DNA of 64,000 nucleotides from Strigamia acuminata (taxonomy: Eukaryota). Positions 242 to 64,000 of the stretch are shown here, piece by piece. Each line of letters starts with the position of its first letter. The first letter of the stretch is position 1. The notes under the pieces were generated by a model, which was not told the origin of the DNA, ran no database searches, and saw only the letters and a list, made by a program, of their open reading frames with translations. Location: contig OX442314.1 in assembly GCA_949358305.1 (NCBI GenBank), positions 5,952,001 to 6,016,000 of the forward strand, in the 5' to 3' direction. Made by a program: the position numbers and the translations under genes.

Positions 242-3200
242 ATGCAGAATTACTTGACCGTAGGAAATAGACGAAGATTACGAAAACTGCGTCTTTCGAT
301 TCAACTGATGATTAAGGCTGATGCCAATAAACCAAACTGTGGTATAATATGTTTGGACGATTTTGTAAACAGTAGAAAATATTGGAGCGGGCATCATGCA
401 TTTTGGCTATTTTTGCTCTTATTTTGCACATGCATGTTCATTTACCAGACGTATGACAGAATAATGCATTACTTAAGTTATCCTACGGCCGTTGATGTGA
501 CGACCAAAGCGGAGGAGATTGTTTTACCGAACTTGTTGATCTGTAGTAGCAACACAAAAGAAATGGCCAGGCTTTGGAATAAAACATATCCACACCTCAC
601 AACTAAAAAACCAGAAGATATTGACTCAAACGCTTTTGCATGTGCAAATATGGTAAAATCTCTGATGGCAATTCCAACCTACAACATGGATGAACTTTGG
701 AAGGCAACCAATATGACAAAAGAGATAGTTAGCATAAAAATGAAAGTAATGGAGCTTAATCATTTTTTTGAAGAAAATAATGATTGAGGTATTGTTTCTA
801 GGGATATTCAAATAAAACAGTTGTTCAGACAGAAACCTACACTACTTATGGAATGTGCTCAGAATTCCAATTTCGTAAATATGTTACCATTACTATTACT
901 GAATACAGAGGATTAAATCTCTTGAAATTCTTTTGTTGTTGTTAGGTAAAGATTCTAGTAAATCATTTGTTGGAAAATCGCTGACGGTTAATATTGAAAA
1001 ACTTTATGATTATATCTGTCCTGCAACTGCTTACCATGTAATTTTTCTAATATTATGTAATAACAATACTGATTTTCATTATTGCATTAGATCCTTCTAA
1101 CGTTAAATAAGTTTGAAAAACCTTATTTTAGAACGTATACATATCTTGGGATAAACTCAAAAATCAATTTGAGTTACAAAAAGGTAAAATTTTAAAATTT
1201 TTGGTTTATTTTTGTCCCATTGTTATTAATCCATCTTGTATTTCATTTCAGTACATATTTATCAATGCAACTATAAACTTATGCTCCACTGAAAATGAGT
1301 ACAGGAAATGTTTCCACGGTTGCCTGAAGACAATATTAAATAAGAAGCTAACCTGCAGGTAAATCGTAAATATGAATTTTTTTGATTGCATTGATGTCAA
1401 CCTGGCACGTCTTCACCCTCGGCTCTCTCAGCAACGTCTGTCTCTCACCACATCACTCTGCTCTTACCTCCCCTGCTAGGCCGGTCCACTCTTCCAAGAG
1501 GGGCATGGCTTAGGGCCACCAGCGGGTGTGTGTAGTGACGTAGGCCACTAGGGTGGCCAAACGGTCACATTCTTATTCAAAGTTTCAAAAAATTCGTATG
1601 GGTCGTAACAATCGACGTAATTATTGAATATAGTTTTTTCTTTCTAGTTTTCCATTTATTTATTTGAAAACCAATTTATCTCGCTGTGCGTGTTCAAATG
1701 AGGCACAAGAACAATACGGTGCGGCAAATAAAATAATTGATAACACCGATCCATTTGCTGATTGTCTATGTCGTCGTCCGTGTCAACAACTGATTTCTAA
1801 ACCATATGTTGAAATAAAGGCAATCGATAATAAAAAAATGCAATCCATATCTTTAGCAATTACCAATGAGAGAATTAATGTGTACGAAGAACGATACGCG
1901 TACGATGTTATTGCTTTACTATCGGATTTAGGAGGCAATTTGGGCCTGTTTCTCGGTCTGTCCATAATCTCATTAACCGAAGTCATCTGGTATTTATATT
2001 GCATTGCAGCAAACATTATTAAAACAAGACCCGTCAATAAGATACAGCATCTTTATGGGTTATGTAAGAAGACTAAAGTTGCTAGTAATAAGAAAATTAA
2101 AACGAATGGAATCTTAATGAAGCTCAAATTAATATTAGCAATAATTAGCACAGGATTTACTGTATACATGTTGCAACATTGTTTCAATTACTACATTGAT
2201 GAACCAGTAACTAAAGTCATTAGTGTTGTTCTACTGCGCAACACTGAATTTCCTTCTGTCACAGTCTGTGGTGAAGAACAAAATGATGGAATGGACCAAG
2301 CCAGATCATATCTACTTGAACAAACTAACAAAACCTGCAATAACCTGCAAATACCTTGGCAATTGTTCAGCAATGAATTATCATTGGAAGATATTTGGAG
2401 TGCTGTCGATATCCATGAATCAATCAATACTGATGATCATGTATCTGAGGTAAGACGGTTAATACACATCAACAATAATTTGAGTTATTAATAATTGATA
2501 CATTTGCTGGTAGTATACATATGGATATTCTACAACACTAAATGTTACAAAAAGTCTTATTCCACTTCCTTTTGGTCATTGTTCACAACTAAATGCAGGT
2601 AATTTAGTAAACAACTTTAAATATCTATTGCCATGATTTTCCGTAGCAAGAAACTACCGCTATTGCAATATTTGAATGGTTTTTACCGCCAAACCATTAA
2701 GTAAAGCAACAACTGCAAATGCAATTGGGCCAATGAATAACCATACGATTAAAACTATTTTCAAAATTTATGATTAATAACTTATCCATCTGGACTTGTA
2801 GTATGTATGTAGGGAATTTGCTGTAGTCTGTGCCTGACGCCTTGGTTTTTGTTAACAAAAACACAAGTTTAAATGATGCACTGTATAATTTAATTTTTGT
2901 GCACACAGCTGGTGATTTTTTAGTTTGATTTACCAGGCTCAAAAGTTTTAACGTTATTCTGGAGTGTTAGAAGCATATGTGATGACATTTTCATTTTCAA
3001 TAAGTAATGACAATCACTAACATTGATTTTATTTGTTCTTTTCAATCTTTTAGACAAATCACACCTCTTTGCCACCCTTCGCGTTTCGTTAGAATATTTT
3101 TATCCACCAAAAGTTTGTAGACAGCATTTATGGGTATATACTATTTAACCATTGCACAAATATGAATCACCGGTATGCACATCTTTCTGCACCGTCTTTT

Positions 3201-3907
3201 TCAGGGTTTTGTAAATATCCCGGAAGAGCAAGTTAATATTTTGGCACCACTGAAGATGAACTATGGATGGGTTAATATACTAATGGTTAAAATGTTTAAG
3301 GTAACAAAGATGAAAAAGATTTTTTTAATGCTTAAACTGACTTAATTTTTACGAAATAGATTGAACGAAGAGATACAAAGCGTAATCCATGTGAAACAAA
3401 CAAAGATACTTATGCGAAGTGTCAATCTGCTTGCATGCAGAATAATTTATATCAAATGATTAATTGCAGGTACTTGTAACAGCGTATTAGACAAATCATT
3501 TTGATCCAACTACCGCTTGTTTCAGCTTGCCCTACATGTCAACATCTGCTTTGCCAGATTGCAACACTACACAAGACATTAATCAAGCCAATTACATGTT
3601 TTTAAACAATTATGACTCGAATCAAAAAAGATGCAAATGCAAACGGCTTTGTACAAACTTTTTTTACCAAATTTCTGTGCATGATGTGAAATTAGATTAT
3701 GAGTTTTACACAGTTGTGGAGGTTAAATTAGCAGATAGTTTCATTGAGACCATAACCGAGAAACAGGCGTATCCAACACCTCAATTGCTTAGTGATGTTG
3801 GCAGTATTGTAGGCTTAGCTTTGGGAATGTCATTGCTATCTTTTTACATTTGGATTATAAACACTTATAATTGGTTTTTAACTAAAAAAAACTATCAAGT
3901 TTATTAA
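242..3907 (+). CDS. DEG/ENaC (ASIC/pickpocket-like) channel gene 1 encoding two fused subunits (~807 aa, 4 predicted TM). Exons: 242-745, 802-874, 946-1037, 1091-1183, 1252-1358, 1648-2449, 2514-2598, 3054-3133, 3205-3300, 3360-3469, 3526-3907
   Basis: Hand-spliced at GT..AG sites into an open 2424-nt frame. Subunit 1 motifs: TM1 + YLSYPT, LPNLLIC, TTYGMC, Cys-rich thumb, TM2 LLSDLGGNLGLFLGLS. Subunit 2 motifs: TM1 + YYIDEPV, FPSVTVC, PFGHC, TM2 LLSDVGSIVGLALGMS. Most exon lengths match paralog 2. Confidence 0.9.
1395..1568. repeat. GC-rich dispersed repeat fragment in intron 5 of gene 1, homologous (inverted) to ~57129-57310
   Basis: Reverse complement GTGACCGTTTGGCCACCCTAGTGGCCTACGTCACTACACACAC aligns to GTGACCGTTTGGCCAACCACTGTGATCCACGTCAGTCCACACAC at 57129. 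Both also carry AGGGTGA(A/G)GACGTG. Confidence 0.55.
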
Positions 3908-4032: not shown

Positions 4033-4131
4033 CATTTATCAATAATTCAGATCATTTTTCATTTTGTTGTGTTTGAGCTGAAATGAATCAGCACTGTGTG
4101 ATCTCTTAATCACTTTTGGTGGTAAACACCA

Positions 4132-6047
4132 TGTGACGGTTTACAATGGCTATAAATGCCTATTTTCTTAGAAAGAAGCGCTGTTGCGCCATTATCATGA
4201 TATCTCGAAGATATTCTGTGTAAAACTGGTATAATTCCTAAATAAAGATATTTGGGATGTTTCAAATACAAAGATGTTCGTTTATTATTAATGAACACTC
4301 ATTTCTACATGATATAAATATATCACGGCCGAATTACGAAGAGTCGTCTGCTAAAACCCGCATTTGTCAATGCTCCATATTGCCACTAGATGGCGCGATC
4401 GCAATTAGCGGTAAATTCGAATACGAACTTGAAAACCTCATGATTAAATATAAACGTATATTTAATCAAGTGAATAAATTGTGTTAAATATTAATATAAA
4501 TATATATTAAATATCTGACATTGTTAAATACAATGTAACTTCCATTTCTGCGGGACAGAATGTTTAGCGATCAATCGGTCAACCGATCAATCTGATTGGT
4601 GGAACCCATTTCCGGTCCTGGGTATCCAGTTCCGGTTGTAACAAGGATTAGCATAATTTGCATAAATGCTCCTCCGTATCCACTTCCGGTGATACGGGAT
4701 TGGAGGAATTCATGGAACCAATGTTCCAATTGGATAGTTGGATTAATCCTTAATCCAGTCAGGTTATATAAACCCAAACAACCAGCCATTCCGCAGCTCT
4801 GTTTGATTATTTCTGTTTGGTATTGTTACTTATGAAATATGATTCGTTGTTCACGTAAAAAACCTTTTGGTTCTTTGTTGATTTATTCGCAAAGAACCGT
4901 TGCATGATTCTACAGAATCATGCCACCGCCGGCAATTGAAGTCGAAGTGCTGGGATTATTATGTTGCATAAATGTTACAGTCTACGGTTGCGACGCCGAA
5001 GGAGAACCCGCCGTTGTGCAATTCAGTATCCTCCGGACAGGACCAAGTTGTCTTTTTCGGTATGAACGTATTCCGTTACCACGAGTAGCATCGGTATTGT
5101 TGAGAATTGGTTCCTTCACCTGATGGTGCCAAAGCAGTCTGTTTTACAGTAACCACGAGTAGCACCAAGTGTTTGGCAAGCTGATTCTCATGGTATTCGA
5201 TGCCAAAGCAGTCGGTCTATTATTAGTACCGCGAGAGATTAAACTGCTGTGCGGAGCCGCGAGCTATCGACCCCTGTGTACGTGGTACCGTCAACCACTC
5301 GATGGACGACCGTGCTGCGACGCCGGGGACGCTTGATACCGTTCTGCATGGCAAGGCGTATATTCTAATCGATGGCAATTGTGTGTTGCGACGGGAAGAT
5401 TAATCTTTATCTTTATTTATAACAGTGAAATCTAACTTGGGAACAAGTTAGTCAAAATCAAGTCAAGTAACTCGAATTACTTATATATTGTATTCAATAT
5501 AATTATTAAGTTGGCGACAACTTAGTTACAAGAACATCCAAATAGGAAAACACAACGATACGAATTAAATATAATTCGTATAGCGGAATATTGATAACTA
5601 AATGAATACATTTAGTTACACCAATATCCTCCCAAAGTTGTGGCGGTGCACATGAGTCAACCGCATCTCTCAGATCATTCGATTCATCGACGTGCGATGA
5701 TATTACACAGCGAACCAAGGAACCAGCGAAGCCGTATCGGACTCCAGGACACAGCCATCCGGCTTAGATGACATCTATAACCAGGTCGAGCGATGGGAAA
5801 ACCGCTCCCATCCCATGGACACGTAATGATATTATTATAAAGCCATTTGGCTAACTTGTTGTATAGTTTAAATGATTATTTAACGGGCCAAATGTCGGCG
5901 TTAGTCCTATGTATAAATTAGCTTTGATATTATTGTTTGCCAACAATAAACTGTCTTGTATTTATCTCGTATTATATTCACTGTTATTCTATTGCGATCT
6001 ATTCCCGGTACCATTGTTAAATGGGAGTTGTGGTCGTCACCGTCACA
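4132..6047 (+). repeat. 5' LTR of element A
   Basis: TGTGACGG...CCGTCACA termini. Near-identical to 52255-55884 once solo LTR E is removed. TATATAAA at 4765, AATAAA at 5945. Confidence 0.95.
4383..4421 (+). promoter_or_regulatory. U3 composite motif: CTCF-like CCACTAGATGGCGC plus E2F/CHR-like GCGGTAAATTCGAA
   Basis: Matches the CTCF core consensus and resembles the E2F-CHR (DREAM) element. Related motifs lie in the LTRs of B, C, D and E. Protein binding is inferred. Confidence 0.5.
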
Positions 6048-7336: not shown

Positions 7337-8918
7337 TGTGATGATTACAAATCAATAGTTGTCAATGTTCACCATAGATGGCGCTGTTTAACCAACGCGC
7401 GTATTTCAAACTCGGTTAAAAACTAAAAAGTGTGATAAATAATTATTTAGACACGGTGAATAAAATATAACTATTTTATTCGATATAAATTAAGTATTAA
7501 TTACTTGATGATGTTGATTCTATCGAATCAATGTCCACTTTACTTACCTGTCGAAGGGAACCAATCGGACCCTTCCGGACCCCAACTGGGCCCATCTGGA
7601 CATAGTCACATATTAGGTCCGGACTAGTGACCCACGAATCCGCCGATTCGTACGCTGATTGGCTGTCGCCAATCTAGTAGTTCTACAGAACTATATAAGC
7701 ATCAGTTTTCCACTTCCCCAGGGCTTGGCTTGATAACTGTAAATGTCTGTAATTGAATTGTTGTTATCGTTTGATTTCACTTTCTTATCGACACATCAGG
7801 CCTCCTCAGCTCTCAATGGATATGTAGACTTACTATCTCGTTATTGCTTGTTGTAAGGCCCATCTGGGAAGGCTAACCTTGTAGACATGTTAACAACATG
7901 AAATGGCCCCGTAGTGTTAGCCAGCTGTTCTAAGGGACAGTAGGATTTCATACGGTGGCATAGTATAATGCTCATGCACGGGATTGACTAACCCGTTAAA
8001 TAAATGTCAAACTATATGATCGGTGATAGTCGCATCTATCTGAGCGATTCCTCGGACGAGGGTCAGACGCTCTGCCAAGAGCGTGTGTGCGGGAGGTCCC
8101 ACCCGAGCACGAAACAAACACGGACAAATGCTATTCCAGGGCGAATTGCGTATCATAGGTCCTTCCGTACTTTAGTGGTCGGTGAATGGCATATTTAAAG
8201 GCACACTACGCCGGGTTGGTAGCCCGTGAGAATTGTCCGTGAAGACATTTCGTTAAACAATTACTCAGGTATTGGTAATCCTGGAATTGGTAAATCCATA
8301 GGAATGTTTACCCGGTGGTTGGTACCACCGATAGCGATGTAAAGCGTACAAACAAATACTCGGCGCCTGATCACGAGATCTTGTCGTCGTAAGGCATGCT
8401 GGCGGATGGAGCCTCAACAACTCCCGCGACGGTCCTGTCGACTGTCGTGACTGTCCCCGCCCCATTAATATTTATACAACAATTCATTTGTTGTATTCCA
8501 CTAATCACTTTGTATTTATTTGACCTGGAATATTCTACAGAATATTCCTTTCCATACGAAGGACTCTTCGTATTATTAGATATTCGAGCTGCGGACCAAA
8601 TGCGTCTCCGTAGCGATATTTGTGACGATGCCGCAAGTCAGCCGTATCCCTCTGGCTTCGCCCGGATCCTCAACCAGTTGATGCCGCCCGTTTACACGCG
8701 TCAAGAACCCATTTACTGTTATCATTAATATTTAGTAATAAATATGTTAAGTCACACTAAAACTGTAAGTTATTTCTATTCGATCACATATTCATGTTTG
8801 TAAAGGCTTCCGTAGCTTATCTCGGTTAGGTTGTTGCTAAACTTAGCAACGTCTTGTATAAACCGAATTATCTATCTTAAAAGGACTAATAAATTGGCCC
8901 AAAAGTAGAATCGTCACA
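7337..8918 (+). repeat. 5' LTR of B
   Basis: TGTGATGAT...ATCGTCACA. Direct repeat of 19796-21377. TATATAA at 7692. Confidence 0.97.
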
Positions 8919-8920
8919 AG

Positions 8921-8938
8921 TGGAGGTTCTACCGAGAT
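8921..8938 (+). promoter_or_regulatory. PBS of B (tRNA-Gln)
   Basis: TGGAGGTTCTACCGAGAT, 2 nt after the LTR. Confidence 0.88.
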
Positions 8939-10054
8939 AGGCTGCCAAATTTTAAATAAAATTTGAAGTTTTGCATGTCTATGATGAATTCAAGTGGTGT
9001 AACGTTTATGGTGATTTTTGTGTGAAAAATAAATTTCGTTCGAGATTTATAAGTGTTTAATATATTTTATTCTGTTTTAGGACTTCTCGCAAGAAAAATA
9101 AGTGTAATACACTTTATTCCGATTTTCCGTCGGAGAAATTATGTGTTTTAACAAAACTAATAATTTCTACCGCGTGGTCAGGCCTAAAGGTCCAACCCCG
9201 AGAATAGGAGTCTTGCCCGAACTTGTTGAAGTTGGTTCCGCCCGGGTAACGTCATTTTGTCGTCGACAATCTGACAAAACCACGCGGTCGGGCCTAATTT
9301 TGAAAAGTTGACTTGTTGATGGAATTCTTAAAGAATTCTATCAATTTAATAGTTGTTTTAATTTCAGAATATTCTTTTATATGTATTTTGCTTGAGACTT
9401 CAAGTTAAACCTCAATTTATTTGCCTAAATAAAATAGAAAGAAAATTAACGCTTTTCGAAGGAATTAAAATTTATATTTTATTTCAAAGTGGGTTTACAT
9501 TATTTTACAGACTTGATCTACATTAAAATGTTGGTTAAAAATCATGATCTCAAGTCATTGAAATCGAATTTTACGAATGGAATACCATTCGAATTTTAGC
9601 GAAGAAGAATTCTCGCTGTTTTGTTGCCAAGCAACCCGTGTTGTGCAGAAAAGCCGTCGATTCAAACGAATTGGCGCGTCTTTTGAAATTACGAGTTTTA
9701 AAACTTTAAAAAAAAAAAAAAAAAATTCCATAAAGGTGATCATTCATTTATTAATAAATGTGGTGATATTTTAAATATTTTGAAAAGTATCCATTTTGTT
9801 TGGTGACTACGTCATAACACTGGAATCTGTCAAGATTACGGTTCCACGAACTTGATGATTTCCACCAATCTAGGACGAGATTGGACTCTCGCGAGACTAG
9901 CGTTGATATTTGACCAATCAGAGAGGTGTATCGAAGTACCCTTACTTCCTTTCGAACTAGTGTGACCACTGCTTCGTTTGCGACCCTCCTGAACGTTTGC
10001 AACTTCATCGTTATCTCTCAGACTTAGGAAATTTTCTTAGTTTTAAGTTTAGTT

Positions 10055-12286
10055 ATGACTAATAACCAGCATCACATGAACACCCGTGGTAAGGAAAGAA
10101 CTTGTTTGACCGGTGGAATGAATCTATCCGGGTTTATACCTGTTCCTAATGGAATTGAAGAAGTGGGAAACCACGCGGTCCATAATGGCGTTTCAAATGA
10201 AACAGCCGGACCATCTGGAGAGAATAGAGCTCCACGTGAACCTACTCCGCCTGGAGAAGAGGAATGCATTCCTGAAGGTTCTCATTTAGGCCGAGGCGGT
10301 CTATTATTTTGTCAGGATCACGGTTTGAACCCAAACCAATTTAGATCTTTGACCGAAGTGTTAGATTTTATACACGCGCCTCGTGCTACGTCGGAGCAAT
10401 CCCATTCCCCAGCCAGCCAAAGATTAAATAATTTTAGTCCCACTCCTTCGACGCCTATTTCTAGATATAGAAATAAAAATGCACAACCTCCTCGTCAAGA
10501 TCAGTCGAATTTGACACCAGGAGATTTTAATCGTGCTTTTCAACAACGATTACGAGCGAATAACTTCGCTCGCAACCGACAAAGAGGATTTACAAATCCA
10601 GAAAACTTTGAGAATACGTTCAACAGAGCGAATTTGGGTCCGCCTAACATGGCCAACCCTAATCCAAGTTTTCCAAACGGATCAAATAGTTGTCCGAATC
10701 TCGCTGGAAATTTGAACCCAAATTCAGGTGTGACAAGAGGTCCAAACCGTCGTTTTGACCCAAACTCTAGATTTGCAAACAATTCTAGTCCAGCACCTAA
10801 CATGCAAAGGGGTCACCCAGTTCCTCCGAACTCGAATAACCCAAATAATCCTTCTACTGGAACTCCAGGAAATTCAAATAACTATTTGAATCAGGGTGCG
10901 CCAGATAATTCGAACTATCGTCCGAATTTTGGTAATCAAGAAAATTCGAACAACCGCCCGAATTTTGACAATCCGGGTAATTCTAATAATCATTCGAATT
11001 ATGGGAACCGAGGCAATTCGAATAACCATTCGAACTTTGGTAACCACAGCAGGTCAAATCAAGGAGGGTCGAATAATTTCAACCCTAATAGTGGTGGCTC
11101 AAGTCAAAATAACTCGAGTCAACCAAAAAATAATGGCGGGTCGTCAAACGACAACTCGCGCCCCCCTAGTAGTTTTGGAATGACGGCTGATGACCTCGCG
11201 TCAATTGCCACAACCATGCACAAATTAATGCAGGCTGGAAAAAGTTCCGCCACTGTCCCTCAAACTAACAGTTTGAAACCCCCAGATATCCCTGTATTCT
11301 CAGGAAAAGCAGAAGAAAGCGAACGCTTTCTCAATATTGTAAAAAATGTCGCTTTTCTGCGAAACATGTCACTCGATGACATGCTTGTTAAAGGCGTTGC
11401 TGGTTATCTAACCGAGCAAGCGCATGGTTGGTTTCATGAACGAAGAGAAGATTTTATATCTTGGGAAGTATTTGAACAGGCGTTCAAAGAACGATTTGTA
11501 GCCACTCGACAAGAGCGGACGAACCAACTAACTAAGTTGAAACAACTGGAAACAGAAAGTCTTTACGACTTTATGCACAAATATTACCAGTTATGGATAT
11601 TACAAGACAGTCTTGATGCAAAAGGGGCTGGTTGTCTTTTTATCGGGAGTGTAACTCCTGCTAATGATTTGCTTTTACATACGCAAGGCATAGCGGATTT
11701 ACCTCTGACAGAGATTTATTCCGTTATAACGAAAAATAAAGGCTTGTACAGTCGTACAGCTAATGGAGCAAGGGAAAATATCTCCAATCCAGTTGTTTTC
11801 CCACCTCGGAAAACTGACACTCGTCCTCAGCCGAAGACAAATGCTAAATCTTTAACTTTGGATTCACAAGAACAACTTAATATTTGTGAAGAAGAGTTAC
11901 CAGAGGAATGCGAGGCCGTCTATTTAATAAATGGAGTAGTAGATCAGACCAGACGTGGTCAATTAGTTTGTTACCACTGTAAGAAACCAGGACACATGCG
12001 TCGAGAATGTCCAGATTTAAAACCACGTGCAAAGTTCAACTCTGAAGAGTTGCCAAAACGAAGTACGCCAGATTCCCCGACTGTGGATCCTACTTCTAAA
12101 CGTCCTAATAACAGATGGATAACTCAAGAAGTGTTGGATGCAACACTGGATGCTAAACTTGATGCGAAATTAAATACTTTTGAAAATAAGTTACAAACTT
12201 CGCTGACTAACTCATTGGCAGAAATGGTCAAGACTTTGATCAAGCCCGAATCTGCTGATTCAAGTGCGACTAGTTCAAAAAACTAG
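10055..12286 (+). CDS. gag: Gag of B (743 aa)
   Basis: Asn/Gly/Pro-rich N-terminal half, retrotransposon capsid-like region (IPVFSG...AHGWF...WEVFEQAFKERF), CCHC knuckle CYHCKKPGHMRREC. Confidence 0.95.
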   Translation: MTNNQHHMNTRGKERTCLTGGMNLSGFIPVPNGIEEVGNHAVHNGVSNETAGPSGENRAPREPTPPGEEECIPEGSHLGRGGLLFCQDHGLNPNQFRSLTEVLDFIHAPRATSEQSHSPASQRLNNFSPTPSTPISRYRNKNAQPPRQDQSNLTPGDFNRAFQQRLRANNFARNRQRGFTNPENFENTFNRANLGPPNMANPNPSFPNGSNSCPNLAGNLNPNSGVTRGPNRRFDPNSRFANNSSPAPNMQRGHPVPPNSNNPNNPSTGTPGNSNNYLNQGAPDNSNYRPNFGNQENSNNRPNFDNPGNSNNHSNYGNRGNSNNHSNFGNHSRSNQGGSNNFNPNSGGSSQNNSSQPKNNGGSSNDNSRPPSSFGMTADDLASIATTMHKLMQAGKSSATVPQTNSLKPPDIPVFSGKAEESERFLNIVKNVAFLRNMSLDDMLVKGVAGYLTEQAHGWFHERREDFISWEVFEQAFKERFVATRQERTNQLTKLKQLETESLYDFMHKYYQLWILQDSLDAKGAGCLFIGSVTPANDLLLHTQGIADLPLTEIYSVITKNKGLYSRTANGARENISNPVVFPPRKTDTRPQPKTNAKSLTLDSQEQLNICEEELPEECEAVYLINGVVDQTRRGQLVCYHCKKPGHMRRECPDLKPRAKFNSEELPKRSTPDSPTVDPTSKRPNNRWITQEVLDATLDAKLDAKLNTFENKLQTSLTNSLAEMVKTLIKPESADSSATSSKN

Positions 12287-12317
12287 ATCCGGGGGACGAA
12301 GGTTTATTCCATCCCCC
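12277..12317 (+). promoter_or_regulatory. -1 ribosomal frameshift signal between gag and pol of B
   Basis: A AAA AAC immediately before the gag TAG, 7-nt spacer, GGGGGA...TCCCCC stem. The -1 frame is open into pol. Confidence 0.85.
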
Positions 12318-12321
12318 AGAA

Positions 12322-15300
12322 GTGGCTAATGCTACGTCGGAATCTTTGTTTATGGATGTAGACACAACTTGTCTTGAAGTAGCCACTAGTCATAGTGGCG
12401 GAGTAGAGGAAAATCTGCAAGAAATGACAGAACAATTAAAAAATCTGACATTGTTTCCACACAAGTGCTACACGAAGAAATTCTGTAGACTCCGCCGACT
12501 CAACAGAGTCATAGGTGGTAATAATTTGCACAATATTACTTTGGGTAATAATAAAGATGATCCTCGAATGAAGATCACAATTGGTGGGCTCACCTACAAC
12601 GCGCTCATGGATACAGGAGCATCTCAATGTTACATTGGGGAACAACTCTTGTCTGAAACTCAGGCTTTGCCAGAATTTTTGCAAGAAGCCCCTAGAAATA
12701 TGTTGGTTAACGCTGTAGGCGTAGCACACAAGCCTGTCGGACAAATAACTTTGTGCGTGCAATGGGCTGATGAATTTACACCAATGAATTTCATCGTTTT
12801 AGCAAAACGAGTTTGTGGCTTGATACTTGGTCACAATTTCATGCGCAGACAGAAAATTAGTCCGCATCCACATTTACAAGAGTTCTCTTGTGCAGATAAA
12901 CCTAATTGGTCCGCCCCTTATGAGTCGGAAGAAGCCAATTTGGCCCTCGCCCCGTTAAATCGAATTACTTTCGATTATTTAGGACTGTCGTCCATTCTCA
13001 ACTCAATTGAGTTAACAGACACTCCTGTGTTGACTTGGGATGAAAAATTAGTTGAGGAGAGCGACTGCACTCCGGAGCAAAGATTAGCACTTCGCGAAGT
13101 GGTTAAATCGATACCGAATGTATTTCGTGATCAAGTTGGGTGCACTAACGTGACCCAGCATCGTATTAAGTTCAAAGAAGGGCATTCATTGCCCAAAATG
13201 CAGTATAGAATGTATAACCCGGCCAAGAGAGCCATTATGACCAAACTAGCTGCAGAATTGGAACAGGATGGACTCATTGAAAAGGCCAAGGGGCCCTTCA
13301 TAAGTCATCCCGTCATTGTTGCGAAGCCTGACGGCTCGTATAGGATGTGCATTGACTACCGGTGGCTAAATGCCATCACCGAAGTCGAAGTAATACAAAT
13401 GCCAAGTATTGACCTTTTATTGCATAATACTGGTCCTGCTAGGTATTTTACGTCAATTGACCTTGTCAAAGGTTACTACCAAGTCGAGATGTGTAAAGAA
13501 GATCGACCAAAGACGGCATTTTACACGCCAAATGGTCCATATCAGTTTGTGCGAATGCCGTTTGGCCTTTGCAATGCGCCTTGTACTTTCCAGCGTCTGA
13601 TGGAAGGCATTTTAGGCTCAGCTTTGCAAGACTACGCGTTAGTTTATTTGGATGACGTAATTGTGTATTCAGATAATTGGGATGATCATCTCAAACACGT
13701 TCGAGATGTTCTAGAAAGGCTTAACCAAGCCAACATGACAATAAATAAAGCGAAATCTCGTTTTGGGCGTACAGAATTAAAATTCTTGGGCCACTGGATT
13801 AAACCCGAAGGTCTCTTCGGTGATCCCGATAAAATATCGGCGATTATGAAATTTCCCACCCCCACGTGTGCTAAAGACATTCAGCGCTTTCACGGCATGA
13901 CTAACTTCTTCAGGAAGTTTGTTCCAAATCACGGAACTATTGCCGCACCATACACACGTATGATGAATGAGAAAACTCCATTTGAATGGGGAGATGAGCA
14001 GACAGAAGCTTTTAATAAAATTAAAGAGCTACTTTGTGGTGACAATTGTCTACACAAACCAGATATGACTTTACCATTTGTTGTCATGACTGACGCTTCA
14101 CATGAAGGCTTAGGAGCTGTCCTTTGCCAAGACGTCGATATATTCGATGAAAAGAAGCAGAAAAACATTTCTGTACCCAAACCTGTAGCTTATGCAAGCA
14201 GAGTTTTACGTGGAGCGGAGAAGCGTTATACAACGCCGGAACTCGAATGTCTCGCAGTTGTGTGGGCTATTGATCGATTTAAACCATATCTCGAATATGG
14301 TACATTCACTTTAGAGTCAGATGCAGAAGCACTGAAATGGTTGATGCGAACGCCTGAACCATCTGGGAAATTTGGCCGATGGGCCTTAAGAATCCAATGT
14401 GGAAATTTTAAAATTGTTTTTCGAAAAGGTGCTGCTAACCAAGTTGCAGATGCACTTTCTAGAGCCCCACTAACAGAGGAAGACATTCCTCTTCGAGATC
14501 ATGTGGAACCTGTCGAAATTAAACAATACTGGCCTGAGTGGGACGGAAATCCTTCTGTTTCATTAAATCGTGCCCCAGAAAAACGAGAATATTTGGCTAG
14601 TGTGCGTTCCTATTTTTCTGAAAATTCTAAAGAATGTTCTGAAGAAAAGGAGGGGGAGGAAGTACAAGAAACCTTGTACAGTGCGTTGACTGAAGTACTT
14701 AAAGAAGTCCCTCCTACAAGGAGAGAAATAATAAATGCTCAATTACTAGATAATGAATGCAAACGCATTCGAGAATATTTATTGAATAACAAGGTTGTTG
14801 GGATACCACAATCTGAAATAAAAGAATGGAAAAACAAAGTCAAAAATTATTGTTTAGACAAAAAAGAAGTTGATGGTGATCAAATGATCATCTATTTTAA
14901 CCCTTCATTCGAAGAGGAATTAAACGATTCGGGAAATGGCTTTAAAGCCGTTGTACCCAGTGCACTTGTAAAGCGAGTACTCTTCGCTTGTCATGGCCAC
15001 CCCCTAAGCGGTCACGCTGGGATGAGTAAGACGCTTGAGAAAACGCGTTTAATATATTTCTGGCCTGGTATGAGTAGAAGTGTCAGGAACTACGTCAAAA
15101 GCTGCACGCACTGTGCTCAGTACAAGCCTATTCAACAGAAAAGGCACGCAGCTCCTTACACGCCACACAACATGACCAATCCTTGGGAATGTATTAATAT
15201 GGACTTGATGGGCCCAAAACCCGCGGGAAGGTCCCAAAACCAGTATATTTTTGTCATTATTGACAATTGTACCAAGTTCGTTGAAATTAAGGCTTTGACA

Positions 15301-16482
15301 AAAGCCACGAGCGCTAACTGCGTTCAAGAATTAAGATCTGTTACAAACAGATGGGGACACCCCAAAAAGATTGTGAGCGATAACGGAAAACAATTTGTTT
15401 CCGATATTTACAATGAGTATTGCGAAATGTACAACATTCGCCCGTCTCATACGAGCACGTATCATGCTCAGGCGAACCCGACAGAGCGAGCCAATAGAGA
15501 TATAAAGACGATGCTGGCCCTGTACACAGATGTGCACACGCAATGGCCGCGTTATTTAGACGAATTTGCATTCGCAATGCGAAATAATGTTTCGGCAGCA
15601 ACGGGCTCAAGCCCGATGTTACTGAACACCGGACGAATCGTAACATTACCTTTCGACCCAAGGATTATTAAACATGCCAATCCATTTGACAAAGAAAATC
15701 CAGAAAAATATGTCAGAGTATTATTAGATATATTACGCAGATCGCATCAAGAGATGCATCGCAGAATTCAATTGAATTTTGAACGACATAGAAAAATACA
15801 CGAACAAAAGTTCGTAATTACGGAGTTCGAAGTTGGAGATTTAGTTTGGAAACAAACTCACATTCTCTCGTGCGCAGATAAAAATATCTCCGCTGGATTT
15901 GCCGAGAAGAGAGATGGTCCGTGGGAAATTACTAAAGTACTTCCTGGCGGAGCGTATAAATTACGCAAATTAGCTGATGGTTCAATTGAAAAATCAGTGA
16001 ATATTAAAGCGTTGTACCCCTATACTCCGTCGTACCCGATTGAGACTTGGAAAGTAGGACAAAAGTCCGCCTCCTACTCGCCTCAAGAAAATCCTAAATG
16101 GATGGACGAAAGTAATCAACTTCCGGATGCTGAAGAAATGGAATTAATTCCTGAAACTTCTTCAGAAATTCCAATGGAATTATCCGACTCAACTTCGGTG
16201 CAAATTGACAAATCTGCGCCCATTAAGTCTAAACATAGACATAGACAACGATTAACTGCTATGGAAAGGAAAGCGGCGTTAAAAAGAGGCGAAGTTCCAA
16301 AGAAACCGCCTCGAAAACCCCGCAAACCCCAACCGATAGTTCCACGAACTAGCACTCGTCCACGACGAGAACGAAAACCAAATCCTAAATATGCAGATGA
16401 AAATTTCGTGCGAAACATCACTGTAGTATTTAAAAAACCATACCAACAACGAGGAAAAGCCTCAAAGTTCTGTTGGAATTGA
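12322..16482 (+). CDS. pol: Pol of B: protease, RT, RNase H, integrase (entered by frameshift from ~12283)
   Basis: LMDTGA, YLDD, TDAS/ELECLAV, HGHPLSGH...CTHC, MDL/SDNG/ERAN, DGPW. Domain order PR-RT-RH-IN is Ty3/Gypsy. Confidence 0.98.
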   Translation: MANATSESLFMDVDTTCLEVATSHSGGVEENLQEMTEQLKNLTLFPHKCYTKKFCRLRRLNRVIGGNNLHNITLGNNKDDPRMKITIGGLTYNALMDTGASQCYIGEQLLSETQALPEFLQEAPRNMLVNAVGVAHKPVGQITLCVQWADEFTPMNFIVLAKRVCGLILGHNFMRRQKISPHPHLQEFSCADKPNWSAPYESEEANLALAPLNRITFDYLGLSSILNSIELTDTPVLTWDEKLVEESDCTPEQRLALREVVKSIPNVFRDQVGCTNVTQHRIKFKEGHSLPKMQYRMYNPAKRAIMTKLAAELEQDGLIEKAKGPFISHPVIVAKPDGSYRMCIDYRWLNAITEVEVIQMPSIDLLLHNTGPARYFTSIDLVKGYYQVEMCKEDRPKTAFYTPNGPYQFVRMPFGLCNAPCTFQRLMEGILGSALQDYALVYLDDVIVYSDNWDDHLKHVRDVLERLNQANMTINKAKSRFGRTELKFLGHWIKPEGLFGDPDKISAIMKFPTPTCAKDIQRFHGMTNFFRKFVPNHGTIAAPYTRMMNEKTPFEWGDEQTEAFNKIKELLCGDNCLHKPDMTLPFVVMTDASHEGLGAVLCQDVDIFDEKKQKNISVPKPVAYASRVLRGAEKRYTTPELECLAVVWAIDRFKPYLEYGTFTLESDAEALKWLMRTPEPSGKFGRWALRIQCGNFKIVFRKGAANQVADALSRAPLTEEDIPLRDHVEPVEIKQYWPEWDGNPSVSLNRAPEKREYLASVRSYFSENSKECSEEKEGEEVQETLYSALTEVLKEVPPTRREIINAQLLDNECKRIREYLLNNKVVGIPQSEIKEWKNKVKNYCLDKKEVDGDQMIIYFNPSFEEELNDSGNGFKAVVPSALVKRVLFACHGHPLSGHAGMSKTLEKTRLIYFWPGMSRSVRNYVKSCTHCAQYKPIQQKRHAAPYTPHNMTNPWECINMDLMGPKPAGRSQNQYIFVIIDNCTKFVEIKALTKATSANCVQELRSVTNRWGHPKKIVSDNGKQFVSDIYNEYCEMYNIRPSHTSTYHAQANPTERANRDIKTMLALYTDVHTQWPRYLDEFAFAMRNNVSAATGSSPMLLNTGRIVTLPFDPRIIKHANPFDKENPEKYVRVLLDILRRSHQEMHRRIQLNFERHRKIHEQKFVITEFEVGDLVWKQTHILSCADKNISAGFAEKRDGPWEITKVLPGGAYKLRKLADGSIEKSVNIKALYPYTPSYPIETWKVGQKSASYSPQENPKWMDESNQLPDAEEMELIPETSSEIPMELSDSTSVQIDKSAPIKSKHRHRQRLTAMERKAALKRGEVPKKPPRKPRKPQPIVPRTSTRPRRERKPNPKYADENFVRNITVVFKKPYQQRGKASKFCWN

Positions 16483-19785: not shown

Positions 19786-19795
19786 CCGGGGGATG
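19786..19795 (+). promoter_or_regulatory. Polypurine tract of B
   Basis: CCGGGGGATG abutting the 3' LTR. Confidence 0.8.
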
Positions 19796-23412: not shown

Positions 23413-23802
23413 TTAAAGGGAATGTTACGTTGTGTAGAATCAAGTAACAAAATCTGAGATAAATTCAGTTTATTTCGTTCAAAAATAATAGTGAAAAATC
23501 TGTTACAAATATTTTCAAGAAAAATAATTTTATCCGAAAAAAGTGATTTACATGTCCTCGTGCCGACCGAGTAGTAAACTGCTTAAATTGTGACATCGAT
23601 ACTATTATTGTGTCACGTGTTATTCGAAATTCCAAGCAAGTGAATTACGAATTTTTGGTGCAATAGGAATAGAAGTTTGATAGTGAAGTTCTCCAGATTT
23701 GTCTTTTCATTTTGAAAAGTTGAATTGAGGAAATGCTGCAACAGATGAAGGTATTTACGAAAATTGCGATCTGAATATTCTTTCATTCAAAAGATAAAAA
23801 TT

Positions 23803-58553: not shown

Positions 58554-61500
58554 ATGCAGAACAATTACTTGATGGGAAGAAATATGCGAAGATTAAGAAA
58601 ACTACGTACAGAAATTCAACGCGTGATAAAAGATGACGCCAACAAACCAAACTGCAGTTTAATTGGTCTGGATGATTTCGTAAACAGTAGAAAACATTGG
58701 AGCAGACGTCATACACTTTGGTTCATTTTGCTCATATTTTGCACATGTATGCTCACTTATCAGACATACGATAGAGTAATGCATTACTTAAGTTATCCTA
58801 CGGCTGTTGACGTAACGACAAAATTAGAAGATATTGAGTTACCAAAGTTGATGATCTGCAGTGGCAACACAAAAGAAATGGCCAGGCTTTGGAATAAAAC
58901 TTATGTGAACATCAAGACTACAGGACCAATTAATTTTGGTTCAATCCCATTTGAATGTGTAAACATGGTCAAAAGTCTGATGGCAATTCCAAATTATGAT
59001 ATGGATGAACTTTGGAGAGCGACCAATTTGAGCAGAGAGATAGTCGGCATTAAAATGAAGGTAGAAAAAATAAGATTGATTTTTTAAATAATAAGTCTTA
59101 ATTTAATTTGTTCAGGGATTTTCAAACAAAACAACTGGCCTGACGGAAACTGACACTCCGTATGGAATATGCTCAACATTTCGATTTTGTAAGTGTAAAC
59201 AAAAAAAAAAGAATGCGCTTAAGACCCCACGGTAGAATAAGTTAAACTTCCTGAAACGTAAATTGTAATTTTTTAATCTGAATTTGTAGTTTTCAGTACT
59301 CTGAGACCAAAATAATTATATTTTTGGGCCCAAATCATTTTTTTTTTTACCAAAAATCATTCTGCTTTTGCCCAACACACAACAGCCAATTTGTGGTCCA
59401 AAAACTAATCACGTTAGTGATTACGAATGAAATGTCACACGATATCAAACGAGGTGTGTTATAAAAAACAATTAAAACGTTGAAAATGTTGCAACAAAGT
59501 ACGGAATTATCACTTTGCAACAATTACCATGTTTACATGTATCCAGTTATCTGGATAAGTAAAAATGCGAATTTTACTTTTCTGGAAAACTGATCATGTA
59601 AACAAATCAGTTTTCTAGAAAAGACAGACTTATCTGGAAAACTAAATTCCAGTTGTACGAGCTAGATTTTGGGCGTTTTGCGCATTGAAAACTGCATGTA
59701 AACACCCGTGCATGCGAAAATTCAAAAACTTGGATCGAGATATTGTCGGATCGTTATAGTAAAAATACGTTAGGCCTACGTGCCAACGACATTTGGTGCT
59801 GAAATCAATGTGAAATCAGCTAAAACCACCATTTTTGGGATCAGAATTTGCATATTAGACACTATTGCAAAGATTCGAGCAAAAACCTCTTTCCTAACCA
59901 CCATTTCATTTGCTTGGCTGAAATGGATCAACAGCCATTTTGTTGTTCCAGATAATCAAAGGGCAGTATGGGTAATTCTCGTAAGACGTCTCGTTTACCA
60001 GAAAACTAACGTCATGTAAACGCAAACGGTTATCCAGATAAATAAAATCCGAATATTCACTTATCTGGAAAACTGTGACCATGTAAACATGATAAATGTC
60101 ATCGGGATCCGTAATACGCGCAACATTCTTACGCGCAACAATACCAATCGCTTGTAAGAATGGTGTTGCACAGTGCAAATATTCGTACATGCGGCCGGGC
60201 GCGTACGAACCACGTAGGCATGCGTGTGCGTGATAAACGGACGTCCAAATCGGCCGAAAATGTCGGCGCCGACTCCAATTCGCTTCGCTCGCGATGTCGG
60301 CACTGACTTCCCACCCAATCGGCGTTACTGACCACTCCACACACACAGTCCACACACACAGTGCTTTTCGTGACATCTCGTGATGCGACACGTCTCCTGT
60401 GACATCTCGTTTGGATTCACCTGTGCTGAAAGAAGTTTGACTACAAAAACATAACCTTTTTGATAACACAAATATCTTTCATTGGTACAGCTAAAACTAC
60501 TAGCAAATCATTTGTCCGGAAATTATTGACAGCAAATATTGAAAAAACATATGATTACGTATGCCCATCAGCTCCGTATGTAGTACGTAGTACAGTACCC
60601 ATGTATAATGTACAGTATCAAAAAATGCAGTTTTTGTTATTTTTTTCTTTCTATTTTCGCTTAGGTTTCCATGTCATTTTACGATTTTGGAAGAAGCATT
60701 CCTGTAGAAACACCAAAACATGGGGCCACATTAAAAATAGATTTGAGTTTTAACAAAGTAAACTTTTCAATTGTCTGATAAAACTAGCAAGTAATATTTA
60801 TATTACTCATTACATTTTAGTTCATATTTTTGAATTCATCGAAGAGTTCATGCTCCAGTGAAAATGAATACAAAGAATGCTATCGTGAATGTTTGATGAA
60901 AAAATTTAAAGAACATTTGACATGCAGGTGAGAATGCGTGATGTAGACTGTAGAGTAACTAATACAATCAGGAAAATAAGAAAACATTTTCTTTGAAAGC
61001 TTTCCTTTTACAAAGACCGATTTACCACTATGTAAATGTTCGGATAAGACACACGAGCTATATGGTATTACGAATCGTTTAATTCAAACAACAGATCCAA
61101 TTGGTGATTGTCTCTGTCGACGTCCATGCGAACATTTAATATTTATAACATACACTGATGCAGAAATAGCAGATGATAAAAACATTATATCTGTGTCACT
61201 AGCGATAACTAATGATAAAATCAATGTGTATGAAGAACGGTTCACATACGATGTTATTGCTTTACTATCAGATCTAGGAGGCAATCTGGGCCTATTTCTC
61301 GGTCTATCTTTAACTTCGTTGCCTGAAATCGCATGGTATCTAGCAAACATTCGGAAAAAAAAATGGTTAATAAGATTCGCCGTGTTTATGACAAATTCAC
61401 AAAGAATATAATTGTGAGTCAACAAAGAAATGTAATTTCACTTGATCTTAAGACAATTCTGGTTATAATATGCACTGGATTCACTTTGTATTGCTTGAAA

Positions 61501-64000
61501 ATTCGTGTAAGCTACTACATTGAAGAACCAGTAACAAAAACTGTAAGAATAGTTCCACGACGCTTTACCCAATATCCGTCTGTCACAATCTGTGGTGAAA
61601 CACAAGATGATGAAATCGACAAAGCCAGATTGAATTTAATGAATCAAACTAACAAGACCTGCAATAACATATCACCGTGGCAATTGTTCAACGACGATTT
61701 ATCATTGGACGAAATCTGGGAAAAACTCAACATCCACGAAACAATAACACTTGCCGGTAAAAACAAAGTAACTGAAACGGTATGGTTCTAAATAAAACCA
61801 TGGGTAAAATCTTAGATTAAATTATTTGATATTTATAGTATTTTCTTGGATATAAAACAATGCTTAATGCATCAAAAAGCCTTATTCCACTTCCTTTCGG
61901 ACATTGTACACACTTCAATACAGGTATATACGTACATAAACACGGGTAAATTAAAGGCCCACATAATCCCGGCCAGACAATACAAGGAGGGTCTCTAAAG
62001 ATGTCTCAAAAAATTTACCATACAATAGCTTGAAGCGATCTTACCCTTTTATACAAAAAGATTTTTGAGACTCCCTCAGTGACTGTAAGCGTACATGTCA
62101 TTTCTCTTTATGTTATTTTCTGTTGTGTCACCTACACTCTTGTTCGACTCAAAAGTGTGGCCTTCTCCTATTGGCCGAGCCGCATCACTCCTAACTCCAG
62201 TCTGTATTACTACCACTAGGAGAAGTAGTTTTTATTTGTATTATGTTTTGTGATTGCTATTACCATTTAAGTTGATATAATTTTAATTGTATTTTATTAT
62301 AAAACGTTATTTCCATTTAGGAAATAAAGTGTTATGCACAAATAAATGTAAAACTCATGTTTGTTTTGTTTATTGGTTGCTTTGTCTGGAAAGCACAATA
62401 TTTTTAAATTTTGGCTGTTACCTAGGAAATCGATTGCAATGTCTGTACATTGTAATGCATTTCTCGTGTTTGGGTCTATATTTTTGGATCACTGCACCAG
62501 TGATACGGTTCGGCCAATGGGAGAAGGTCACCCTGTTGAGTCGAACAAGAAATTAGTTTCTAAGTTCCGTTTTTGAGAACGACGATTGAGCGCGCTGAAT
62601 GTAATTTTGCAAAAGGCTTGCACGATGTAAACTTACAATAGCCAAGAAGTAAAGTTAATTTTCAATTTTTAACTATTACAAACGTTTCATTGGAATCATT
62701 TACGATAAACAAGAAGACAACTCTTGCTTTACAGTGACCCTCATTGTATTGTCGGGCCGGTATTATGCGAGCCACCCGCTGTTATAGCACATTCACACTA
62801 AATGATTTCTACACTACATGGTGAAGGGTATGTGTTGTATCCATTTGGTATTATCCATTCAGCATTACTCAATTAATTAATTAATTAATCACCTATAATT
62901 AAAATTGCACTCTAGATCTAGCTGAAGCTTCTGAAAAATGACTGTGATCTTTCTAATGTTTTCCAGAAAAAACACACAACCTAATAGTTGACTTTACGTT
63001 TACATTTGAATTCCTACAACCCTCAGACGTATGCAACCATGATATGAAGGTAAGCTAAAATCATTAGACAGATAAATACCTTACCCTCAACAGATTAGAA
63101 TCCAAACGACTGGATTCCTGTAAATCAGGATTTAAATTGATCAGTAAAGGGGTTAGCAAGAATTCTGTAAACCAGGAATGTGCATTTTCCCATATGGGTT
63201 TGAAAAGGTTTGTAACTGGAAAACTGTACGTGCAGAATGCCAGAGTAGATTGTACCATTTATTCAGCCCAGAAACAATGACATTGATAAATTTTTATTTT
63301 GCACATACAATCGCAGACCAAATACCAGGTGGCCCAAATAAAATCAATTGGCCGGACAGTATGAAGAGGGTTAGTATTGTTGGGCGGATTTTATTTAGGC
63401 CACCTGCAACCGGTACAATAGGTGTACTCAAATGAATTGTGACTGATTTGTCTGAAATTACTTGTTACTTGTTACAAGAAGTGATCCAATATGCATCCAC
63501 ATAATTTTTAATTATCTTATATTATTCAGTTATTCCTAAATAATCCAGCAGAGGAAGTTAACATTCTGGAACCATTGGTGTTAATCTATGGATGGATAAA
63601 TATTGTTGTACTTCGAGAATTTATAGTAACAATTTAAACAATATTATTTACAAAAAATACGGTACATCCTGTTTATAATGAACTTGATTTTATAAAATAG
63701 TCTGTGCAAAGAAATACAAAGCGCAATCCATGTGAAGATAACAAAACTACATATTTGATGTGTAAAAATGCTTGCATACAAAACAATTTATTTAGAAGCA
63801 TTAACTGCAGGTATACTAGCCAATTGACACATTTTACTTTATTCACATCTCACAAGTCAGTGCTGATTTGGTGAATTGGCACGAATGTTTATATCTATCG
63901 AAACATCTATGTTCCCTTGTTTCACATTTATTTTTATTTATTGCCACATTTTATTGTCATCTATTTCTTAATTACTTGTTATAATGACTTCTTAGATTAC
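58554..64000 (+). CDS. DEG/ENaC two-subunit channel gene 2 (paralog of gene 1), running off the window, with one frameshift at the A9 run 61355-61363. Exons: 58554-59060, 59116-59188, 60491-60582, 60665-60757, 60821-60927, 61000-61779, 61839-61923, 62967-63049, 63530-63625, 63701-63810, 63996->
   Basis: Same motifs, intron phases and mostly identical exon lengths (73, 92, 93, 107, 85, 96, 110 nt) as gene 1. All introns are GT..AG. Confidence 0.85.
59527..60092. mobile_element. Probable MITE in intron 2 of gene 2
   Basis: Imperfect TIR CATGTTTACATG..CAGTT.TC..GATAAGT, repeated internal CATGTAAAC motifs, TA on both flanks. Confidence 0.45.
61956..62773. mobile_element. Degenerate MITE in intron 7 of gene 2 with an inner inverted-repeat pair (~62135-62190 and ~62499-62552)
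   Basis: GGCCCACATAATCCCGGCCAGACAATACAAGGAGGGTC versus reverse complement GGCTCGCATAATACCGGCCCGACAATACAATGAGGGTC. TSD not resolved. Confidence 0.55.
63325..63406. repeat. Short inverted repeat (tiny MITE remnant) in intron 8 of gene 2
   Basis: CAGGTGGCCCAAATAAAATC and GATTTTATTTAGGCCACCTG. Confidence 0.45.

What the first reader, a model, noticed from the sequence alone, without database searches (positions are those of the whole stretch)
242..3907. Natural concatemer: one gene encodes two fused DEG/ENaC subunits
Seen: within one exon (1648-2449), TM2 of subunit 1 (LLSDLGGNLGLFLGLS) reads without a stop through a ~40-aa basic linker into TM1 and FPSVTVC of subunit 2. Both halves have five introns at equivalent positions with phases 0,1,0,0,2, which points to whole-gene duplication and fusion. 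The paralog at 58554 has the same design, so the fusion predates the gene duplication. Known: DEG/ENaC channels are trimers of 2-TM subunits. Inference: a 4-TM dimer cannot fill a trimer alone. It would need a third monomeric subunit (2+1) or cross-linked higher-order assemblies, i.e. genetically fixed stoichiometry.
Basis: partly seen in the sequence, partly recalled or inferred. Interest (0 to 1): 0.85.

Follow-up and report, generated by a model that had tools for sequence, protein, structure and literature searches.

The report
Centipede double-subunit DEG/ENaC channel gene
One gene, most likely from a soil centipede, joins two complete sodium-channel subunits in one unbroken reading frame, although channels of this family are built from three, so the predicted double protein would likely need a separate third subunit to form a pore.

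Summary
Confirmed. Eleven GT-AG exons (242-3907) give an 807-aa frame holding two complete DEG/ENaC units (24% identical; intron phases 0,1,0,0,2 in each), joined inside one exon by a basic 36-39-aa linker. It is no one-off: 21 of 23 Strigamia maritima entries looked up carry a TM2-linker-TM1 junction (a query-biased sample), the closest 59% identical over the junction exon. First and second units form separate clades (SH-aLRT 96 in one tree, 84-88 in another), which fits one old fusion and a later expansion. Both units are under purifying selection (dN/dS 0.25 and 0.42) and differ consistently in pore residues. Correction: the paralogue at 58554 has the same exons but is frameshifted in its linker as assembled (nine-A run). 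Translation as one chain and the stoichiometry are inferred; best guess: two of three trimer positions plus a monomeric partner (about 0.5). Side result: three-unit, single-chain DEG/ENaCs occur in six named decapod genera and probably in a second Strigamia family. Ten literature searches found no natural DEG/ENaC concatemer; the scan's notes hold no same finding (one mentions a fused Naegleria model).

The parts
242..745 (+). Gene 1 exon 1: N-terminus (no HG motif), TM1 of unit 1 (about 398-457), start of the ectodomain
802..1358 (+). Gene 1 exons 2-5 (802-874, 946-1037, 1091-1183, 1252-1358): unit 1 ectodomain
   Evidence: same exons in the paralogue
1648..2449 (+). Gene 1 exon 6, the junction exon: end of unit 1 ectodomain, TM2 of unit 1 (about 1904-2011), linker, TM1 of unit 2 (about 2120-2194), start of unit 2 ectodomain
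   Evidence: two ASC stretches; 59% to T1JEH2 over 99% of the exon
2012..2119 (+). Basic, probably cytosolic linker, about 36-39 aa; no stop; length kept in the family (28-58 aa) while sequence drifts
2514..3469 (+). Gene 1 exons 7-10 (2514-2598, 3054-3133, 3205-3300, 3360-3469): unit 2 ectodomain
3526..3907 (+). Gene 1 exon 11: end of unit 2 ectodomain, TM2 of unit 2 (about 3776-3862), short tail, stop; poly(A)-signal-like hexamers follow at 3955 and 4027
58554..63810 (+). Paralogue (gene 2), ten exons inside the window: 58554-59060, 59116-59188, 60491-60582, 60665-60757, 60821-60927, 61000-61779, 61839-61923, 62967-63049, 63530-63625, 63701-63810; last exon beyond the window end
   Evidence: GT-AG, same phases; 61% and 53% identity to units 1 and 2 of gene 1
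61355..61363 (+). Nine-A run in the paralogue's linker where the frame is offset by one base as assembled
   Evidence: related contigs carry one more base here

Best explanation
The gene holds two full DEG/ENaC units in one open reading frame, and its predicted four-helix product likely fills two neighbouring positions of one trimeric cation channel, with a separately encoded single-unit DEG/ENaC likely filling the third. Shown: the frame, the intact units, the selection on both, the family, and fixed differences in pore residues. Inferred: translation as one uncut chain, membrane topology, both units in the same pore, and the partner. The fusion would fix the order and ratio of two specialised subunits: unit 1 keeps the canonical pore helix (Gly at 3', Asn at 4', mostly acidic 18'), unit 2 carries Ser/Asn at 3' and mostly lacks the acidic 18'. 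The many paralogues would then act as variable two-thirds of a sensory channel, by analogy with the antennal centipede channels BRTNaC1 and PDPNaC1, which are its closest solved relatives.
For: Gene model and 4 TM. Junction in 21 of 23 named S. maritima entries; 16 of the 21 belong to this family, 5 to a second one. Unit 1 rows (14 of 14) and unit 2 rows (15 of 15) each fall on one side of a branch, SH-aLRT 96. dN/dS gene 1 vs gene 2: unit 1 0.25 (404 codons), unit 2 0.42 (232 codons), at dS 0.8-1.0. Eight thumb cysteines with like spacing in each unit. Pore residues: 3' Gly in 23 of 23 unit-1 motifs but Ser/Asn in 8 of 9 unit-2 motifs; acidic 18' in 18 of 23 vs 1 of 9 (one further unit-1 motif and one protein were not matched by the pattern). 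Unit 2 ends 22-39 aa after its TM2 Asp in 8 of 9, and no ASC piece that could be a third unit lies between 3907 and 58467. AlphaFold2 on the full-length S. maritima relative T1JD34: pLDDT 75.6, pTM 0.71, four long TM helices; best fold matches BRTNaC1 and PDPNaC1, TM 0.70-0.73 by target length. A complete monomer exists in S. maritima (T1JKA6, 395 aa) and its clade lies next to this family (unresolved fork). Precedents: engineered ASIC concatemers with 19-aa added linkers make working trimers (PMC10329638, passages); PDB 9PZN/9PZO list one amiloride-sensitive chain per two Pickpocket 26 chains; decapod three-unit proteins suggest that chained units can share one pore.
Against: The linker (28-58 aa in 23 measured rows) is much longer than between the first two decapod units (TM2-to-next-TM1-exit distance 69-99 vs 49-57) and is low-confidence in the model (pLDDT 46-51), so it could also reach a second trimer. 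The Atlas model of the same protein has pTM 0.53, and I could not see coordinates, so neighbouring packing is not checked. No single-unit DEG/ENaC lies in the window, and only 2 of 23 named S. maritima entries lack a junction (one clean monomer), though the query favoured junction carriers. The paralogue is frameshifted as assembled, and one contig each in X1 and X3 has a one-base insertion in exon 11, so some copies may be dead. Support for the two clades drops to 84-88 in the smaller tree, with long branches. The S. maritima entries are computed models, several broken. The linker is the least constrained part (dN/dS 0.55, 33 codons).
Confidence: 0.5

Rival explanations
1. Self-assembly without a monomer: three double chains supply six units and build two cross-linked trimers (for example 2+1 and 1+2), or open arrays; or a second chain lends one unit to the third position and leaves the other outside the pore.
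For: 3 x 2 = 2 x 3; the linker is long, basic and poorly ordered; double genes far outnumber monomers among the entries looked up (21 vs 2 of 23, query-biased); no monomer in the window.
Against: No such linked DEG/ENaC pair is known to me (recalled); the linker length is held to a fairly narrow range (28-58 aa); pTM 0.71 suggests one preferred packing of the two units.
Confidence: 0.25
2. The gene is fused but the products are not: the linker is cut after translation, or shorter transcripts or slippage give single units that then assemble freely. In its boldest form, the A run in gene 2 yields both a single-unit and a double product.
For: The paralogue's assembled frame gives a unit-1-only product with a normal-length tail; donor-like and poly(A)-like hexamers lie in the gene 1 linker (2064; 2018, 2096).
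Against: No stop follows unit 1 in gene 1 or in the family's models; the hexamers and donor sites are not shared between the paralogues; no Met is kept in the linker (none in gene 1, T1JGJ4, T1JEG4, T1IYF0); gene 1 has no A run there; related contigs carry one more base at that place, and the nine listed records with gaps across it each have a net 10 gap letters, which restores the frame.
Confidence: 0.12
3. Unit 2 is an accessory, non-pore module (sensor, chaperone or tether); three chains use unit 1 to form the pore and unit 2 hangs outside.
For: Unit 2 departs from the canonical pore helix (3' Ser/Asn in 8 of 9, acidic 18' in 1 of 9) and evolves faster (dN/dS 0.42 vs 0.25).
Against: Unit 2 keeps both helices, the Asp at 0', the G-x-S/C/T belt and all eight thumb cysteines; a free DEG/ENaC unit would expose its trimer faces (inference).
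Confidence: 0.08
4. Artefact or relic: two adjacent genes merged by chance or by assembly, or a fragment of a three-unit gene.
For: Merged models of tandem genes seem to occur elsewhere in this family: the units of Polypedilum (3), Abscondita (5) and Helobdella (2) entries group within their own protein. Only 241 bases lie upstream of gene 1 in the window.
Against: The junction is inside one exon, open in independent short-read contigs, conserved at 59% in S. maritima and shared by paralogues only 22-30% identical; units group by position, not by protein; the N-terminus is conserved with gene 2 (dN/dS 0.18), which has no ASC piece upstream.
Confidence: 0.05

Closest known systems
BRTNaC1 (PDB 8YMR/8YMW; PMC9974506) and PDPNaC1 (PDB 9JF7; PMC12714832), antennal DEG/ENaCs of Scolopendra subspinipes mutilans
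   Same: Best sequence hits among solved structures (E 1e-9 for exon 6; E 6e-20 for T1JD34) and best fold hits; compact ectodomain; PDPNaC1 also lacks the HG motif (passage); Gly at the position of PDPNaC1 Gly378 in both units of gene 1.
   Different: They are single-unit proteins of 431 and 421 aa; PDPNaC1 is a homotrimer. Here two units share a chain. The PDPNaC1 Ser376 position is Asn in unit 1 and Ile in unit 2. No orthology shown.
Heteromeric DEG/ENaCs with set ratios: ENaC alpha-beta-gamma, ASIC2a/3 1:2 (PMC10329638), Pickpocket 26 complex 1:2 (PDB 9PZN)
   Same: Different subunits share one trimer, and 2:1 ratios occur.
   Different: Subunits come from separate genes; chains were joined only by experimenters.
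Undescribed S. maritima entries T1JEH2, T1JD34, T1ITL7, T1IPM9, T1J963, T1JBK6 and others (UniRef, 'uncharacterized')
   Same: Same two-unit layout and junction; T1JEH2 53% identical over 700 columns.
   Different: Automatic models, many partial; I found no paper that remarks on the layout.
Decapod three-unit DEG/ENaC-like proteins (Halocaridina, Cherax, Homarus LOC121878297, Petrolisthes, Palaemon, Penaeus), uncharacterised
   Same: Units chained TM2-to-TM1, each position forming its own clade.
   Different: Three TM2 motifs, so the symmetry matches a trimer; shorter linkers; middle ectodomain shortened in most; separate from the centipede units in the trees, so likely an independent origin.
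Two-repeat and four-repeat channels of the voltage-gated superfamily (TPC, K2P, Nav/Cav) - recalled, from no call
   Same: Subunit genes joined into one chain, which lets pore positions specialise.
   Different: Unrelated fold; two divides four, so they need no partner, whereas two does not divide three.

Membership tests
DEG/ENaC (each unit) | Pfam ASC (PF00858) above the curated cut-off | tested here: met
   Exon 1 43.7 bits, exon 6 72.5, last exon 48.0; cut-off 23.6. The spliced protein itself was scored only with a profile built here: units 18-424 and 427-801.
DEG/ENaC (each unit) | Two TM helices around a large ectodomain | tested here: met
   Hydropathy peaks near 53, 388, 444, 768; ten N-glycosylation sequons, all in the two ectodomains; four long helices in the relative's model.
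DEG/ENaC (whole polypeptide) | One two-TM subunit per chain | tested here: not met
   Two units, four TM. Hence filed as a variant, not as an ordinary member.
DEG/ENaC (each unit) | Cysteine-rich thumb | tested here: met
   C265-C335 and C655-C723, eight cysteines each with like spacing.
DEG/ENaC (each unit) | TM2 with Asp at 0' and G-x-S belt | tested here: met
   D383...GLS and D771...GMS. Prime numbering is recalled ASIC usage.
DEG/ENaC (each unit) | Pre-TM1 HG motif | tested here: not met
   Absent before both TM1 helices. Not universal: the working channel PDPNaC1 lacks it too (PMC12714832).
DEG/ENaC (each unit) | ASIC-like fold | tested here: met
   Tested on the relative T1JD34 (about 25% identical), not on gene 1: Foldseek E 5e-18 to BRTNaC1, TM 0.70.
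DEG/ENaC | Trimeric assembly | not testable with these tools
   A full double chain plus a full monomer exceeds the size limit; no coordinates were returned for the model.
DEG/ENaC | Cation conduction and gating stimulus | not testable with these tools
   Needs electrophysiology.
BRTNaC1 / PDPNaC1 orthologues | Sister to either channel in a tree | tested here: not met
   Both fall outside the unit 1 and unit 2 clades; deep branches are weak.
Decapod three-unit family | Three units and shared position clades | tested here: not met
   Two units; separate clades.

The most novel reading that the evidence does not exclude
Arthropods have repeatedly hard-wired DEG/ENaC stoichiometry into single genes: soil centipedes expanded a large family of two-unit chains that act as interchangeable two-thirds of a sensory channel (2+1 with a shared monomer, or linked trimer pairs), while decapods and a second Strigamia family encode whole three-unit channels in one chain, the trimeric counterpart of the step from Kv tetramers to Nav/Cav.
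Probability: 0.55. Interest if true: 0.82.

Novelty: new variant of a known kind. Interest (0 to 1): 0.7.

Why it matters
DEG/ENaC channels are described as trimers of two-helix subunits (PMC10148893, passages), and fixing their ratio has needed engineered concatemers. A natural two-unit chain poses a clear assembly puzzle (2 into 3) that one expression experiment can answer. It also lets single pore positions evolve apart, which is visible here in sequence. With the three-unit decapod proteins it gives a natural series (1, 2, 3 units) for asking how asymmetric pores and obligate heteromers arise. Gene counts that discard or split long ASC models as annotation errors would miss these families.

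Tried and rejected
No whole genome is held, so a genome-wide count of monomers and doubles was not possible. No RNA holder listed; the three holders laid are contigs that cover introns, so splicing and expression were not tested. Complex prediction of T1JD34 (36-790) with a cut piece of the monomer T1JKA6 (150-392, without TM1, no alignments): no answer, score 0.23 against a mark of 0.34, controls not run; a stand-in pair from another species, no evidence either way. Whether the nine-A run of gene 2 is an assembly slip or a real allele: inconclusive, because the contigs with the extra A (4, 3 and 5 in X1-X3) may be paralogues. AlphaFold2 of a decapod three-unit protein gave six TM helices but pLDDT 64.7 and pTM 0.51 from 11 sequences, which does not confirm a closed pseudo-trimer; no fold search was run on it. 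Word search with T1JD34 found only S. maritima entries; Atlas searches showed only single-unit-length clusters, which cannot show absence. Sister status of units 1 and 2 differs between trees; a mixture-model run returned nothing. The Polypedilum, Abscondita and Helobdella multi-unit entries were set aside as possible merged tandem genes; their DNA was not checked. Literature searches and word look-ups in PMC9822975, PMC5203786, PMC8438182, PMC4244043, PMC7067487, PMC7510291, PMC10148893 found no natural multi-unit DEG/ENaC; no supplements were read, and the S. maritima genome paper's supplements could bear on this.

Full report
Observation. The window is eukaryotic DNA with short introns. A gene model built from the sequence has 11 exons between 242 and 3907, all ten introns GT-AG, and translates to 807 aa with one terminal stop and four hydrophobic segments. 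Pfam ASC is found in exon 1, twice in exon 6 and in the last exon. The halves are 24% identical (E 1e-14) and have intron phases 0,1,0,0,2 each; introns 2 and 5 sit at the same distance from conserved cysteines, the other three within a few codons. Exon 6 (1648-2449) runs from TM2 of unit 1 through a 36-39-aa linker with 9 K/R and no D/E into TM1 of unit 2; the chance of an open, in-frame 39-codon gap is about 0.02. Two variant short-read contigs cross the junction without gaps.

The paralogue. Gene 2 (58554 onward) has ten exons in the window with the same phases. As assembled, its two units are one base out of frame at a nine-A run (61355-61363) and unit 1 stops near 61411. With X at the break the frame is open for 675 aa. 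Against gene 1, dN/dS is 0.25 for unit 1, 0.55 for the linker and 0.42 for unit 2, at dS 0.8-1.0 (simple codon counting, one pair), so both units were under selection until recently. Contigs from three runs show one extra base at this place and dozens of related copies (39, 38 and 41 contigs differ at 61274), but they do not settle whether the nine-A form is real.

Family and organism. Exon 6 finds Strigamia maritima T1JEH2 at 59% over 99% of the exon, linker included, so the window is most likely from a geophilomorph centipede (inference). A full-library search gave 327 hits, 150 listed. I looked up 30 of them; this names 23 S. maritima entries, of which 21 have a TM2-to-TM1 junction. The sample is biased, since the query was the junction and I chose the rows. 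Sixteen of the 21 belong with the window's genes. In a 54-row tree, 14 of 14 first units and 15 of 15 second units each lie on one side of a branch with SH-aLRT 96; in a 30-row tree support is 84-88 and the two groups are sisters at 94. Both are quick trees with long branches, drawn from the units (the overview tree kept 169 of 203). One old fusion followed by expansion fits best; duplication of one gene and fusion of two neighbours cannot be told apart.

Anatomy. Both units of gene 1 keep eight thumb cysteines, the TM2 Asp and a G-x-S belt; neither has an HG motif, which PDPNaC1 also lacks. The two TM2 helices differ in a fixed way across the family: position 3' is Gly in 23 of 23 unit-1 motifs and Ser/Asn in 8 of 9 unit-2 motifs; 18' is acidic in 18 of 23 vs 1 of 9 (prime numbering recalled). 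Linkers are 28-58 aa and basic. Unit 2 ends 22-39 aa after its TM2 Asp in 8 of 9, and no ASC piece that could be a third unit or a monomer lies between the two genes, so two units is the real size. The closest solved structures are the Scolopendra antennal channels BRTNaC1 and PDPNaC1. AlphaFold2 on the complete relative T1JD34 gives pLDDT 75.6 and pTM 0.71 with a low-confidence linker; the Atlas model has pTM 0.53.

Mechanism. DEG/ENaCs are trimers of two-helix subunits (PMC10148893, passages; PDPNaC1 homotrimer, PMC12714832, first ninth of the text plus one passage). A two-unit chain cannot close a trimer alone. I favour two neighbouring positions plus a separate monomer (0.5): engineered ASIC concatemers with short linkers work (PMC10329638, passages), 1:2 complexes exist (PDB 9PZN chain counts), and S. 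maritima has a clean monomer, T1JKA6. Self-assembly into linked trimers (0.25) stays open because the linker is long and doubles seem to outnumber monomers. Processing into single units (0.12), an accessory unit 2 (0.08) and artefact (0.05) are less likely. A sensory role is inferred only from the relatives (PMC9974506, passages) and from the expansion. I put the existence of a real, selected two-unit gene at about 0.9; that it is made as one uncut chain is inferred.

Wider picture. The search also showed three-unit proteins. A family of about 930-1290 aa occurs in Halocaridina, Cherax, Homarus, Petrolisthes, Palaemon and Penaeus, and on four unnamed Logan contigs of 3.5-3.8 kb that each carry a whole ORF. 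My pattern found three TM2 motifs in 10 of 19 proteins and two or one in the rest, where profile hits or the printed sequences show the remaining units. Their first and third units group by position. Two S. maritima models of a second family, T1IZL2 and T1IU28, overlap at 96%, 75% and 98% to give an A-B-C layout. These were not checked at DNA level, and the fold of one decapod protein was too weak to show a closed trimer.

Known or new. Ten full-text searches (listings and abstract starts) and word look-ups in seven papers (passages only, no supplements) found no natural multi-unit DEG/ENaC; the S. maritima genome paper has no ENaC term in its main text. The library lacks most subscription papers. 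The scan's notes hold no same finding. Each unit is a DEG/ENaC; the chain is a new architecture within that family. The comparison with TPC, K2P and Nav/Cav is recalled.

Verdict. Real feature, new variant of a known kind, interest 0.7. What is missing is a transcript and an assembly experiment.

Noticed in passing
P0130, P0117, P0087, P0154-P0162 (database proteins): Conserved three-unit, six-TM DEG/ENaC-like proteins in six named decapod genera, most with a shortened middle ectodomain; candidates for single-chain pseudo-trimers.
   Followed up: partly
P0008, P0007, P0003, P0002, P0011 (S. maritima T1IZL2, T1IU28, T1IYP6, T1IL99, T1ITG7): A second, younger concatemer family in Strigamia; overlapping models give an A-B-C three-unit layout.
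   Followed up: partly
window 61355-61363: Nine-A run that breaks the frame of gene 2 between its units; would give a unit-1-only product; assembly slip or real allele not settled.
   Followed up: partly
window 7337-21380 (+), 23802-38184 (-), 40461-51336 (-): Three LTR retrotransposons of Ty3/gypsy type with near-identical terminal repeats (99.8-99.9%); the first two are 94% alike and inverted, and each has an extra ORF behind pol (520 aa in the first, no Pfam match).
   Followed up: partly
window 4132-5512 / 52255-53635 and 5507-6047 / 55344-55884: Near-identical repeats (over 99%) that flank the transposon block, the second copy split by about 1.7 kb; very high contig depth at 4117-4400.
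   Followed up: no
window 1397-1569: A multi-copy repeat inside intron 5 of gene 1 (high depth and loose ends).
   Followed up: no
window 3665: One contig each in X1 and X3 has a one-base insertion in exon 11, so an allele or paralogue may be broken in unit 2.
   Followed up: no
P0032, P0107, P0047, P0108: Multi-unit ASC entries in Polypedilum (3), Abscondita (5), Helobdella (2) and an unnamed ENA contig of 3.8 kb (2 units, short linker); may be merged tandem genes or further fusions.
   Followed up: no
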